Below, in pieces: positions 42,200 through 46,011 of a stretch of DNA of 64,000 bases (the stretch's first letter is position 1; each line of letters starts with the position of its first letter). The translations under genes and the position numbers were made by a program. Below the pieces are notes generated by a model, which worked only from the letters and a program-made list of their open reading frames with translations, made no database searches and was not told where the DNA came from. The stretch lies in the NCBI RefSeq assembly GCF_003334315.1, contig NZ_QOWR01000005.1; one strand, written 5' to 3'. This stretch comes from Escherichia coli. Its GTDB lineage: Bacteria; Pseudomonadota; Gammaproteobacteria; Enterobacterales; Enterobacteriaceae.

Positions 42200-43150
42200 T
42201 TATAGTTTGGCGGCAAGAAGATCTTCCAGTTTGCGTTGATCAACGGCGAACAGACGAATGCCTTCAGACAGTTTTTCTACCGCCATCGCATCCTGATTGT
42301 GCTCCCAACGGAACTCCGCTTCGCTCATGGGAGCTGGGTGTGGGAACGTCTGAGAAGGTGGGATTAATTTACGTACCACTGGCGAAACTTTTTCCTGCAG
42401 CTCCTTCAGCAAATTCGGTGCGATAGTCAGTCGATCGCAGCCGGTTAAGGCGAGGATTTGTTCGGTGCGACGGAAGCTCGCGCCCATCACAATGGTTTCA
42501 TAGTGGTGTTGCTTATAGTAGTCGTAGATATTGCGCACCGATTTAACGCCCGGATCTTCTTCCACCACATACGGGTCCATCGGCTTGCGTGCCTGATACC
42601 AGTCATAAATACGCCCGACAAACGGCGAAATCAGAAAAACGCCTGCTTCCGCACAGGCCCGGGCCTGTGCAAAAGAAAACAGCAGCGTCAGGTTGCAGTT
42701 AATACCTTCTTTTTCCAGCTCTTCTGCCGCGCGAATTCCTTCCCAGGTCGAAGCCAGCTTGATCAGAATGCGTGATTTCTCAACGCCTTGTTGCTGATAC
42801 AAGTCCACCAGATGGCGCGCCTTCTCAATACTCTTTTCTTTATCAAAAGAGAGGCGTGCATCAACTTCTGTTGACACGCGACCGGGTACGATTTTGAGAA
42901 TTTCAGCACCGAAATTGACCGCCAGTTTGTCACACGCTGCGACCACCTGTTGTTCCTGGGTCTTGCCATTTTTTTTACCCCAGGCGATAGCATCGTCTAT
43001 TAAATGCTCATATTGTGATAATCCGGCAGCCTTGAGTAACAGCGAAGGATTGGTGGTGGCATCCTGGGGATGATAATGGCGAATGGACTCAATATCGCCG
43101 CTGTCTGCCACGACAGTGGTGAACTGTTTGATGCCGTCTAACTCGTTCAT
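42200..43150 (-). CDS. talA: transaldolase A
   Basis: 316-codon [46 protein letters not shown]... Confidence 0.96.
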
Positions 43151-43438
43151 AGGAAATACTCCTTGAAAAGTAAAGTGTTAGATGAGTGCGTTAATTCACA
43201 CTTCTGAGAAATTTCGCTAAACGCATCAAAAAAGCATAGCAGACAGGCATGGTATTGCTGGATTAAGCAGGTAACATCAGTGTTATAGGATTATTACCAA
43301 AACATTATATTAATGGTGAGAGTTTGGACTTGCTCAAAGTCTGTAGACTCCGGCAAGGTAATAATGTGCGCCACGTTGTGGGCAGGGGCTGTTGCCCACA
43401 CACTTTATTTGTGAACGTTACGTGAAAGGAACAACCAA

Positions 43439-45718
43439 ATGGATGACCAGTTAAAACAAAGTGCACTTGATTTCCATGAATTTCCAGTTCCAGGGAAAAT
43501 CCAGGTTTCTCCAACCAAGCCTCTGGCAACGCAGCGCGATCTGGCGCTGGCCTACTCACCAGGCGTTGCCGCACCTTGTCTTGAAATCGAAAAAGACCCG
43601 TTAAAAGCCTACAAATATACCGCGCGCGGTAACCTGGTGGCGGTGATCTCTAACGGTACGGCGGTGCTGGGGTTAGGCAACATTGGCGCGCTGGCAGGCA
43701 AACCGGTGATGGAAGGCAAGGGCGTTCTGTTTAAGAAATTTGCCGGGATTGATGTATTTGACATTGAAGTTGACGAACTCGACCCGGACAAATTTATTGA
43801 AGTCGTCGCTGCGCTCGAACCGACCTTCGGCGGAATCAACCTCGAAGACATTAAAGCGCCAGAATGTTTCTATATTGAACAGAAACTGCGCGAGCGGATG
43901 AATATTCCGGTATTCCACGACGATCAGCACGGCACGGCAATTATCAGCACAGCCGCCATCCTCAACGGCTTGCGCGTGGTGGAGAAAAACATCTCTGACG
44001 TGCGGATGGTGGTTTCCGGCGCGGGCGCCGCAGCAATCGCCTGTATGAACCTGCTGGTAGCGCTGGGTCTGCAAAAACATAACATCGTGGTTTGCGATTC
44101 AAAAGGCGTTATCTATCAGGGCCGTGAGCCAAACATGGCGGAAACCAAAGCCGCATATGCGGTGGTGGATGACGGCAAACGAACCCTCGATGATGTGATT
44201 GAAGGCGCGGATATTTTCCTCGGCTGTTCCGGCCCGAAAGTGCTGACCCAGGAAATGGTGAAGAAAATGGCTCGTGCGCCAATGATCCTGGCGCTGGCGA
44301 ACCCGGAACCGGAAATTCTGCCGCCGCTGGCGAAAGAAGTGCGTCCGGATGCCATCATCTGTACCGGCCGTTCCGACTACCCGAACCAGGTGAACAACGT
44401 CCTTTGCTTCCCGTTCATCTTCCGTGGCGCGCTGGACGTTGGCGCAACCGCCATCAACGAAGAGATGAAACTGGCGGCGGTACGCGCGATTGCAGAACTG
44501 GCCCATGCGGAACAGAGCGAAGTGGTGGCTTCAGCGTATGGCGATCAGGATCTGAGCTTTGGTCCGGAATACATCATTCCAAAACCGTTTGATCCGCGCT
44601 TGATCGTTAAGATCGCTCCTGCGGTCGCGAAAGCGGCGATGGAGTCGGGCGTGGCGACGCGTCCGATTGCTGATTTCGACGTCTACATCGACAAGCTGAC
44701 TGAGTTCGTTTACAAAACCAACCTGTTTATGAAGCCGATTTTCTCCCAGGCTCGCAAAGCGCCGAAGCGCGTAGTTCTGCCGGAAGGGGAAGAGGCGCGC
44801 GTTCTGCATGCCACTCAGGAACTGGTAACGCTGGGACTGGCGAAACCGATCCTTATCGGTCGTCCGAACGTGATCGAAATGCGCATTCAGAAACTGGGCT
44901 TGCAGATCAAAGCGGGCGTTGATTTTGAGATCGTCAATAACGAATCCGATCCGCGCTTTAAAGAGTACTGGACCGAATACTTCCAGATCATGAAGCGTCG
45001 TGGTGTCACTCAGGAACAGGCGCAGCGTGCGCTGATCAGTAACCCGACAGTGATCGGCGCGATCATGGTTCAGCGTGGGGAAGCCGATGCAATGATCTGC
45101 GGTACGGTGGGCGATTATCATGAACATTTTAGCGTGGTGAAAAATGTCTTTGGTTATCGCGATGGCGTTCACACCGCAGGTGCAATGAACGCGCTGCTGC
45201 TGCCGAGTGGTAACACCTTTATTGCCGATACCTACGTCAATGACGAACCAGACGCAGAAGAGCTGGCGGAGATCACCTTGATGGCGGCAGAAACTGTCCG
45301 TCGTTTCGGTATTGAACCGCGCGTTGCTCTGTTGTCGCACTCCAACTTTGGTTCTTCTGACTGCCCGTCGTCGAGCAAAATGCGTCAGGCGCTGGAGCTG
45401 GTCAGGGAACGTGCGCCAGAACTGATGATTGATGGTGAAATGCACGGCGATGCAGCGCTGGTGGAAGCGATTCGCAACGACCGTATGCCGGACAGCCCTT
45501 TGAAAGGTTCTGCCAATATTCTGGTGATGCCGAACATGGAAGCTGCCCGCATTAGTTACAACTTACTGCGCGTTTCCAGCTCGGAAGGTGTGACTGTCGG
45601 TCCGGTGCTGATGGGCGTGGCGAAACCGGTTCACGTGTTAACGCCGATCGCATCGGTACGTCGTATCGTCAACATGGTAGCGCTGGCCGTGGTTGAAGCG
45701 CAAACCCAACCGCTGTAA
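43439..45718 (+). CDS. maeB: NADP-dependent malic enzyme (malic enzyme fused to PTA-like domain)
   Basis: 759-codon [50 protein letters not shown]... Confidence 0.97.
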
Positions 45719-45736: not shown

Positions 45737-45764
45737 CGCTTACCCTGAATATTCAGGGTAAGCG
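45737..45764 (+). terminator. perfect 28-bp palindrome downstream of maeB (probable terminator hairpin, or operator)
   Basis: cgcttaccctgaat|attcagggtaagcg, perfect 14-bp arms, 19 nt after the maeB stop, followed only by gttt. Confidence 0.5.
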
Positions 45765-46011
45765 GTTTAGCTGCAATATATTAGTAAAGCTTATTACTGA
45801 GTTTGCGAATAATAAAAAAAGCAGTATATAAAATATCTCGAGATTATTTTATTTATATTCATGCGTCGCATATGAAAGTTTATTCATAACAGTAAATATC
45901 TCTCCATTCTTAGTGATCTACCTCACCTTTTAAACGCGCTTGCCGAATTTTGTTATTTACTCTGACGAAAAATTGTCACGATACACGAAAGTTTTTCACA
46001 GGCGGCGACTC

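What the first reader, a model, noticed from the sequence alone, without database searches (positions are those of the whole stretch)
43377..43413. Terminator-like hairpin in the maeB leader, 25-60 nt upstream of the start codon
Same-strand hairpin (gtgggca / tgcccac stem, 8-nt loop) followed by ACACUUUAUUUGUG lies between the divergent talA start (43150) and the maeB ATG (43439), just upstream of the maeB ribosome-binding site. No upstream plus-strand gene needs terminating, so it may be a leader attenuator or regulatory structure for maeB, or the 3' end of an unannotated short transcript.
Basis: inference. Interest (0 to 1): 0.3.

Follow-up and report, generated by a model that had tools for sequence, protein, structure and literature searches.

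The report
Stem-loop heading the maeB mRNA leader
The hairpin is real and sits four bases after the main transcription start of the E. coli malic-enzyme gene maeB, so it is most likely an ordinary 5'-leader stem-loop that transcription reads through, not a working terminator.

Summary
A 9-bp, 6-nt-loop hairpin lies at 43377-43400 (-14.3 kcal/mol), followed by CAC-UUUAUUU-GUG, 39-62 nt upstream of the maeB ATG in an E. coli window.

Published capped-transcript data place maeB starts at 43373, 43318, 43299 and 43285. All are upstream of the hairpin. Full-length reads run through it to the end of maeB. The 43373 start follows a -10 element that is conserved across Enterobacterales, so the hairpin occupies +5 to +28 of the main mRNA.

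A curated Term-seq table lists no 3' end anywhere near it. The U tract is interrupted and separated from the stem by CAC. I found no competing antiterminator fold and no conserved leader peptide.

The hairpin is Escherichia-specific. There is no consensus structure across ten genera, and folding z-scores elsewhere are about zero. About 10% of complete E. coli genomes carry a mid-stem mismatch.

The conserved sequence lies just downstream: a U-rich run, a Spot 42-complementary site and the ribosome-binding site. The leader is a published CsrA target.

Best reading: a constitutive 5'-terminal leader stem-loop, possibly protecting the 5' end. A leaky attenuator and a neutral origin both remain possible. 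Interest is low.

The parts
43377..43400 (+). Stem-loop. 5' arm 43377-43385 (UGUGGGCAG), loop 43386-43391 (GGGCUG), 3' arm 43392-43400 (UUGCCCACA). It occupies +5 to +28 of the mRNA that starts at 43373.
   Evidence: -14.3 kcal/mol, z = -2.8.
43401..43413 (+). Tail CAC-UUUAUUU-GUG. An interrupted U-rich tract, offset 3 nt from the stem. It is homologous to the CAC/CCC-UUUUU(U)GA run of Salmonella, Citrobacter and Enterobacter.
   Evidence: My tail score nT is 0.79, lower than the two mapped 3' ends in the window.
43360..43365 (+). -10 element AATAAT of the conserved maeB promoter. Other Enterobacterales have GATAAT, GATACT or TATACT here. The -35 is poor.
   Evidence: Alignments. The TSS lies 8 nt downstream.
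43373..43373 (+). maeB transcription start (K-12 NC_000913.3 2578443, minus strand there). Gives a 66-nt 5' UTR.
   Evidence: SMRT-Cappable-seq supplement of PMC6131387. Coordinate conversion.
43318..43318 (+). Upstream maeB TSS giving a 121-nt 5' UTR. Its -10 (TATATT, 43306-43311) is not conserved in other genera.
   Evidence: PMC3415461 supplement, 611 reads. PMC6131387. Alignment.
43285..43299 (+). Two further upstream maeB TSSs, at 43285 and 43299 (K-12 2578531 and 2578517).
43418..43431 (+). Conserved single-stranded segment (U)UACGUGAAAGGAA. It contains a 9-nt perfect complement to Spot 42 nt 44-52 (43418-43426) and the Shine-Dalgarno / CsrA GGA motif (AAGGAA, 43426-43431).
   Evidence: sequence. 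(literature).
43439..45718 (+). maeB coding sequence (NADP-dependent malic enzyme, 759 aa).

Best explanation
The hairpin is a stable stem-loop specific to Escherichia, at the very 5' end of the principal maeB mRNA. Transcription from the conserved promoter (-10 at 43360-43365) starts at A43373. The RNA therefore begins 5'-ACGU followed directly by the 9-bp stem-loop, then a U-rich single-stranded stretch, a Spot 42-complementary site, and the ribosome-binding site, which is also a CsrA site.

The stem-loop forms constitutively, with no competing fold. RNA polymerase largely reads through it. Its most likely effect is that of a 5'-terminal leader hairpin. It leaves only 2-4 unpaired 5' nucleotides, which would limit 5'-end-dependent decay (RppH/RNase E). 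It also ties up the GC-rich part of the leader, so the downstream regulatory segment stays single-stranded.

Shown: the structure, its position relative to mapped TSSs, read-through, and the lack of mapped 3' ends. Inferred: the stabilising or organising effect.
For: - TSS at K-12 2578443 = window 43373, with full-length reads to the maeB 3' end.
- This TSS lies 8 nt after a -10 hexamer that aligns across Escherichia, Salmonella, Citrobacter, Enterobacter and Klebsiella, and out to Photorhabdus and Providencia.
- The hairpin appears in the MFE and centroid of the 43373 and 43318 isoforms. In the MFE of the short isoform only 2 nt stay unpaired at the 5' end.
- Hairpin stability is -14.3 kcal/mol, z = -2.8. 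From the TSS, z = -2.2.
- No 3' end is listed in the curated Term-seq table.
- A 100-nt leader-GFP fusion containing the hairpin is expressed and repressed by CsrA. maeB mRNA is stabilised in csrA51. Control therefore acts on the read-through mRNA.
- Established knowledge (Emory, Bouvet & Belasco 1992, ompA leader; recalled, not read here): a stem-loop within about 2-4 nt of the 5' end prolongs E. coli mRNA life.
Against: - No half-life or reporter data exist for this hairpin.
- It is not conserved. RNAalifold finds 0 consensus pairs across ten genera, and the 5' arm aligns as an Escherichia-only insertion.
- Folding z-scores of the equivalent segment in 16 other lineages scatter around 0.
- 558 of 5426 E. 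coli records (for example Nissle 1917 and ATCC 11775) carry G43382A, a mid-stem A.C mismatch that removes the hairpin from the MFE. Constraint is therefore weak.
- Four unpaired 5' nucleotides is at the upper limit for protection.
- In transcripts from 43318, 43299 or 43285 the hairpin is internal, so the 5'-end argument does not apply to them.
Confidence: 0.4

Rival explanations
1. Neutral by-product. The hairpin arose from a lineage-specific insertion or duplication in the GC-rich, fast-evolving spacer between the promoter and the conserved U-run/RBS block. It has no selected function. It only looks like a terminator because it sits next to a conserved U-rich tract that is kept for other reasons.
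For: - The 5' arm aligns as an Escherichia-only insertion and there is no consensus structure.
- z-scores in other genera are about 0.
- A mid-stem mismatch is fixed in about 10% of E. coli genomes.
- Roughly 3 of the 10 comparable sites in the window are expected by chance.
Against: - The 24-mer folds better than 196 of 200 shuffles.
- The divergent strain RMDEC465 changes three hairpin positions yet keeps pairing (C43396T gives G.U; the other two changes are in the loop).
- The mismatch allele can still form a weaker interrupted hairpin (-9.1 kcal/mol).
Confidence: 0.3
2. Leaky promoter-proximal intrinsic terminator. A fraction of polymerases release RNA at the U tract (about 43406-43412). 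This would give RNAs of about 35-40 nt from TSS 43373, or about 90-125 nt from the upstream starts, and would lower maeB output. Factors binding just downstream (Hfq/Spot 42, CsrA) might modulate it.
For: - The hairpin plus T-rich tail passes the consensus terminator scan.
- The T-run is conserved in Escherichia, Salmonella, Citrobacter and Enterobacter, and in Salmonella it also follows a GC hairpin.
- SMRT-Cappable-seq and standard Term-seq libraries are insensitive to very short RNAs (inference).
Against: - No 3' end is listed in three growth conditions, including for the 90-125-nt products that should be detectable.
- Full-length reads come from all the TSSs.
- There is a CAC spacer and an interrupted U tract. 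nT is 0.79, and the d-score is below the two mapped 3' ends of the same window.
- No alternative fold and no conserved uORF were found.
- In Salmonella and Citrobacter the 5' arm lies in the promoter discriminator, upstream of the predicted TSS.
- The T-run is absent in Klebsiella and Kluyvera.
Confidence: 0.15
3. Docking module for a post-transcriptional regulator. Either the loop presents the conserved C-AGG motif as the upstream CsrA contact that cooperates with the GGA at the RBS, or the hairpin plus U-rich tail binds Hfq (as the 3' module of sRNAs does) and helps Spot 42 pair at 43418-43429.
For: - The maeB leader is repressed by CsrA, and maeB mRNA is stabilised in csrA51.
- The AGG in the E. 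coli loop aligns with CAGGA(U/C) or AGGAA in Klebsiella, Kluyvera and Enterobacter.
- There is 9-nt perfect Spot 42 complementarity 8 nt after the U tract.
- A Spot 42-maeB interaction and 2.1-fold repression are reported.
Against: - The E. coli loop reads AGGGG and lacks the GGA core.
- The published biophysical model placed CsrA at about -13, -76 and -17 to -25, not in the loop.
- I retrieved no Hfq or CsrA footprint data for this leader.
- The hairpin itself is not conserved, while regulation by these factors presumably is.
Confidence: 0.12
4. DNA-level operator. The 9-bp inverted repeat with a 6-bp spacer, at +5 to +28 of the promoter, is bound by a dimeric repressor.
For: It is a perfect 8-nt palindrome, TGTGGGCA-N8-TGCCCACA, at a position typical of repressor roadblocks.
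Against: - It is not conserved in any other genus.
- The only similar site in the window has 2 mismatches, which is within chance.
- No regulator with this motif is known to me.
- The palindrome is broken in about 10% of E. coli.
Confidence: 0.03

Closest known systems
5'-terminal stabilising stem-loops of E. coli mRNAs (ompA 5' UTR hp1; Emory, Bouvet & Belasco 1992)
   Same: A stable hairpin begins 2-4 nt from a mapped 5'-triphosphate end, upstream of an accessible RBS, and forms constitutively.
   Different: There is no half-life evidence. The hairpin is not conserved beyond Escherichia and is weakened in a large E. coli lineage. The gene also has longer isoforms in which the hairpin is internal.
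Rho-independent terminators / 5'-UTR premature-termination elements (those catalogued by Term-seq in PMC7815308)
   Same: A GC-rich stem-loop followed by a U-rich stretch, on the sense strand of a 5' UTR.
   Different: There is a 3-nt CAC spacer and an interrupted U tract. No 3' end is mapped, full-length read-through is documented, and no antiterminator or sensor is present.
CsrA-repressed leaders such as glgC (GGA at the SD plus an upstream GGA in a hairpin loop)
   Same: The leader is experimentally repressed by CsrA. It has a GGA in the SD and an upstream hairpin whose loop carries a conserved AGG.
   Different: The E. coli loop has AGGGG, not GGA. No footprint exists, and the published model did not use this site.
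Spot 42 (spf) target sites near ribosome-binding sites
   Same: A 9-nt perfect complement to Spot 42 nt 44-52 lies next to the SD. The interaction and repression are reported in the literature.
   Different: This concerns the segment downstream of the hairpin (43418-43429), not the hairpin itself.

Membership tests
Intrinsic (Rho-independent) terminator | GC-rich stem-loop of about 5-14 bp with a short loop | tested here: met
   9 bp (5 G-C pairs), 6-nt loop, -14.3 kcal/mol.
Intrinsic (Rho-independent) terminator | Uninterrupted U tract starting 0-2 nt after the stem | tested here: inconclusive
   The tail is CAC-UUUAUUU-GUG. It passes the permissive scan. It scores nT 0.79, against 1.56 and 1.05 for the mapped maeB and tktB 3' ends. 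The formula was recalled from d'Aubenton Carafa 1990 and is not calibrated to ViennaRNA energies.
Intrinsic (Rho-independent) terminator | RNA 3' ends at the U tract in vivo | tested here: not met
   The curated Term-seq table of PMC7815308 has no entry between K-12 2560305 and 2581778. Caveat: three conditions only, and low sensitivity for very short RNAs.
Transcription attenuator / riboswitch | Mutually exclusive antiterminator structure or ligand/ribosome sensor upstream | tested here: not met
   The hairpin is in the MFE and centroid of both isoforms with no competitor. No Rfam family matches at E<=10 other than noise.
Leader-peptide attenuation | Conserved translated uORF overlapping the terminator and contained in the transcript | tested here: not met
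   The ORFs at 43313-43414 (33 aa) and from ATG 43364 (16 aa) start upstream of the main TSS 43373. In other genera the equivalents end at different stops (4-19 aa) with no peptide conservation.
5'-terminal stabilising stem-loop | Stable hairpin within about 2-4 nt of the mapped 5' end | tested here: met
   TSS is at 43373 and the stem starts at 43377. The MFE leaves 2 unpaired nt and the centroid leaves 4.
5'-terminal stabilising stem-loop | Hairpin prolongs mRNA half-life, with loss on disruption and rescue by compensation | not testable with these tools
   Needs rifampicin-chase or reporter experiments.
Conserved cis-regulatory RNA structure | Structure conserved, with covariation, across related genera | tested here: not met
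   RNAalifold finds 0 pairs in 10 genera. z-scores of the equivalent segments are about 0. Strict terminator-like sites occur only in E. coli and Salmonella.
CsrA-binding leader | GGA motif overlapping the SD and experimental repression by CsrA | tested here: met
   AAGGAA at 43426-43431. Repression of the leader-GFP fusion, co-IP and stability data are cited in PMC6028588 and PMC4844966.
CsrA-binding leader | Second GGA presented in a hairpin loop upstream | tested here: not met
   The E. coli loop is GGGCUG, preceded by CAG, so it reads AGGGG with no GGA. Klebsiella, Kluyvera and Enterobacter have CAGGAU, CAGGAC or AGGAA at the aligned place.

The most novel reading that the evidence does not exclude
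The hairpin plus U tract is a leaky, promoter-proximal terminator. It releases a 35-40-nt capped RNA from the main maeB promoter. Binding of Hfq/Spot 42 or CsrA to the adjacent conserved segment tunes its read-through. That would couple sRNA or CsrA control to transcription elongation within the first 40 nt of a central-metabolism gene. Such short products would have escaped the Term-seq and long-read data examined here.
Probability: 0.08. Interest if true: 0.45.

Novelty: new member of a known kind. Interest (0 to 1): 0.17.

Why it matters
maeB (NADP-malic enzyme) sits at the PEP-pyruvate-oxaloacetate node. It is controlled by ArcA, CsrA and Spot 42. Knowing that its main mRNA begins with a stable stem-loop followed by a conserved single-stranded regulatory segment helps in three ways:
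- interpreting leader-reporter studies, which used an arbitrary 100-nt leader;
- engineering the gene;
- comparing natural alleles, since B2 strains carry a weakened stem.

It is not a new kind of element. Showing that a terminator look-alike is read through is mainly useful as a caution for sequence-only terminator calls in 5' leaders.

Tried and rejected
- **Rfam scan of 42900-43700:** only noise hits.
- **Term-seq tables:** searched by gene name and by coordinates; nothing at the locus.
- **Sources that could not be used:** the Dar & Sorek 3'-end tables and the Conway operon tables are not held. The Cappable-seq supplement held no matching coordinates. The Thomason dRNA-seq paper is not held. 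A K. pneumoniae maeB TSS was not in the held part of the Kim 2012 tables.
- **Conserved hairpin plus U-run across genera:** it looked promising by eye but was rejected. Dinucleotide-shuffle z-scores are about 0. Strict terminator-like sites occur only in E. coli and Salmonella. RNAalifold gives no pairs.
- **Leader-peptide attenuation:** rejected. The uORFs start upstream of the main TSS and are not conserved.
- **Anti-SD pairing of the U-run with GAAAGG:** only 4 bp in E. coli.
- **DNA-operator idea:** no second site in the window beyond chance and no conservation.
- **Global RNAduplex of Spot 42 against the leader:** uninformative because of giant loops. Replaced by a local analysis.

Full report
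**Where we are.** The window is E. coli. Positions 43100-43500 match 5425 of 5426 complete E. coli genomes at >=95% identity, and the region is annotated tal / maeB. In K-12 MG1655 (NC_000913.3) maeB is 2576098-2578377 (-) and talA is 2578666-2579616 (+). The conversion is therefore K-12 coordinate = 2621816 - window coordinate.

**The observation.** Positions 43377-43400 read TGTGGGCAG GGGCTG TTGCCCACA, followed by CAC TTTATTT GTG.
- The consensus scan calls it terminator-like: 9 pairs, 5 G-C, loop 6.
- The 24-mer folds at -14.3 kcal/mol, z = -2.8, with 4 of 200 shuffles as good. In a 46-nt context z is -1.5.
- Across the whole window, sites of this class number 10, against 2.8 +/- 1.6 in shuffles. 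The feature is real, but about a quarter to a third of such sites are chance.

**Is it transcribed, and from where?**
- Kim et al. 2012 (PMC3415461) list one maeB TSS, at NC_000913.2 2576520. It has 611 reads and gives a 121-nt UTR. This is window 43318.
- SMRT-Cappable-seq (PMC6131387) lists maeB TSSs at 2578443, 2578498, 2578517, 2578531 and 2578917, which are window 43373, 43318, 43299, 43285 and 42899. It reports full-length capped transcripts 2578443->2576049, 2578498->2576050 and 2578531->2576049, i.e. through the hairpin to just past the maeB stop.
The hairpin is in the leader of every isoform, and polymerase reads through it.

**The promoter behind TSS 43373.** I collected leaders from several sources:
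- 15 Enterobacterales genomes;
- 40 metagenome contigs;
- named Salmonella, K. pneumoniae, K. grimontii and Kluyvera/Phytobacter loci.

They align in blocks. Before I saw the long-read data, a conserved hexamer (GATAAT / GATACT / TATACT; E. coli AATAAT at 43360-43365) predicted a start at about 43372-43375 (note). The mapped TSS at 43373 is its 8th downstream base.

This hexamer is retained out to Photorhabdus, Providencia, Brenneria and Acerihabitans. The -10 of the 43318 start (TATATT) is not conserved. I therefore take 43373 as the ancestral, principal start. The mRNA then begins ACGU + hairpin (+5 to +28) and has a 66-nt UTR. RNAfold keeps the hairpin in the MFE and centroid of both the 43373 and 43318 isoforms, with 2-4 unpaired 5' nucleotides in the short one and no competing fold.

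**Is it a terminator?** The evidence against:
- The curated Term-seq table of Adams et al. 2021 (PMC7815308; LB OD 0.4 and 2.0, M63 glucose) has no 3' end between 2560305 and 2581778.
- Full-length reads pass the site.
- The U tract is separated from the stem by CAC and interrupted by A and G. A d'Aubenton-Carafa-type tail score is 0.79, against 1.56 and 1.05 for the maeB and tktB 3' ends mapped in the same window. Its overall score is also the lowest. I recalled the formula from memory, and absolute values are uncalibrated.
- There is no antiterminator alternative and no Rfam family.
- The two ORFs that cross it (33 aa from 43313; 16 aa from ATG 43364) start upstream of the main TSS. They have non-conserved counterparts of 4-19 aa elsewhere.

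What stays open is leaky termination, and 35-40-nt products that these libraries would miss.

**Is the structure conserved?** At first sight each genus seemed to have a hairpin ending just before a conserved T-run. Testing removed this impression.
- Dinucleotide-shuffle z-scores of the promoter-to-T-run segment in 16 other lineages range from -1.35 to +1.11 and centre on zero. E. coli from its TSS gives -2.2.
- Strict terminator-like sites exist only in E. coli and Salmonella. In Salmonella and Citrobacter the 5' arm lies in the promoter discriminator, upstream of the predicted TSS.
- RNAalifold on ten genera returns zero pairs. The E. coli 5' arm (TTGTGGGC) aligns as an Escherichia-only insertion.

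Within E. coli, the 5426 records divide as follows for 43358-43430:
- 4248 are identical to the window;
- 558 (including Nissle 1917 and the type strain ATCC 11775) carry G43382A, a mid-stem A.C mismatch that removes the hairpin from the MFE (a weaker interrupted form of -9.1 kcal/mol remains);
- 561 carry C43403A in the CAC spacer;
- a rare divergent lineage (RMDEC465) changes two loop positions and one arm position, and the arm change keeps a G.U pair.

Constraint on the stem is therefore weak.

**What is conserved next to it.** The segment CAC-T5-6-GA-CGA-(N)ACGTGAAAGGAAC is conserved in Escherichia, Salmonella, Citrobacter and Enterobacter. The ACGTGAAAGGAA core is also conserved in Klebsiella.
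- Positions 43418-43426 (UUACGUGAA) are a perfect 9-nt complement of Spot 42 nt 44-52. An alternative register pairs GUGAAAGG, which includes the SD, with Spot 42 nt 36-43. A 9-mer match is expected 0.015 times per 98 nt.
- Arrieta-Ortiz et al. 2020 (PMC8534726) report 2.1-fold down-regulation of maeB on spf overexpression. They cite a physical Spot 42-maeB interaction.
- The 100-nt leader-GFP fusion, which contains the hairpin, is repressed by CsrA (PMC6028588). maeB mRNA is stabilised in csrA51 (PMC4844966).
- The AGG in the E. coli loop aligns with CAGGA(U/C) or AGGAA motifs in Klebsiella, Kluyvera and Enterobacter. The E. coli loop, however, lacks the GGA core.

**Verdict.**
- **Best reading (0.40):** a constitutive, lineage-specific stem-loop at the 5' end of the main maeB mRNA. 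It works like an ompA-type 5' hairpin and keeps the GC-rich part of the leader away from the conserved single-stranded regulatory segment. It is read through.
- **Rivals:** a neutral by-product of an insertion (0.30); a leaky promoter-proximal terminator (0.15); a CsrA or Hfq docking module (0.12); a DNA operator (0.03).

Its terminator/attenuator mechanism is not supported by the available end-mapping data.

**Novelty and interest.** I found no description of this hairpin (no Rfam family, no mention in the papers searched). It is a new instance of a common kind of leader structure, in the best-studied bacterium. It has weak conservation and no evidence of an unusual mechanism. Interest is low (0.17).

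Noticed in passing
window 43418-43429 (+); Spot 42 gene at L132 200-310: The maeB leader carries a perfect 9-nt complement (UUACGUGAA) to Spot 42 nt 44-52. An alternative 8-bp register covers the Shine-Dalgarno. The ACGTGAAAGGAA core is conserved from Escherichia to Klebsiella. This fits the published Spot 42-maeB interaction, for which I found no published pairing site.
   Followed up: partly
window 43270-43298: A conserved block GGTAACA-N4/5-TGTTAT-N6-(G)ATAACA has TGTTA-type repeats (a GTTAT-N6-ATAAC palindrome in other genera; degraded in E. coli). ArcA is reported to repress maeB directly (PMC3798270), so this is a candidate ArcA site.
   Followed up: partly
window 43316-43343: A strongly conserved GAGAGTTTGG-N6-(T)TCAAAGTTTG. 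The inverted repeat TTTGG-N6-TCAAA is centred at -42.5 from TSS 43373, where the -35 is poor. This is a class II activator-like position with a CRP/FNR-family-like half-site. I found no regulator assigned to it.
   Followed up: no
window 43163-43178 (talA leader, minus strand) and 43400-43415: The divergent talA and maeB leaders both contain ACACUUUAYUU about 15-35 nt upstream of their start codons (16 nt, 81% match as an inverted repeat on DNA). This could be chance or a shared U-rich leader motif.
   Followed up: no
window 43227 (-) and 43229-43244: The talA-tktB TSS (K-12 2578589) maps to 43227. The conserved AAAAAGCATAGCAGAC block supplies a CTATGCT -10 on the minus strand, which is the shape expected for a sigma-S-type promoter.
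   Followed up: partly
window 43290-43298 and 43357-43365: A perfect 9-nt complement ATTATTACC / GGTAATAAT lies 58 nt apart. It could form a long-range helix only in the 43285 isoform, and it overlaps the -10 of the main promoter. It is E. coli-specific.
   Followed up: no
window 45737-45767 (+): The maeB 3' end mapped by SMRT-Cappable-seq (K-12 2576049 = window 45767) lies 2-3 nt after a 12-bp hairpin with a poor U tail (GUUUAGC). It looks like a hairpin-protected or processed end rather than a canonical intrinsic terminator.
   Followed up: no
window 43356, 43382, 43403: Common E. coli polymorphisms in the leader. A43356G occurs in K-12 (CAAGG becomes CAGGG, in a site the published CsrA model used). 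G43382A occurs in about 10% of genomes (B2 strains such as Nissle 1917). C43403A occurs in about 10%.
   Followed up: partly
window 42899 (+), inside talA: A far-upstream maeB TSS (K-12 2578917) is listed by SMRT-Cappable-seq. Its transcript would be antisense to the first 250 nt of talA and its leader.
   Followed up: no
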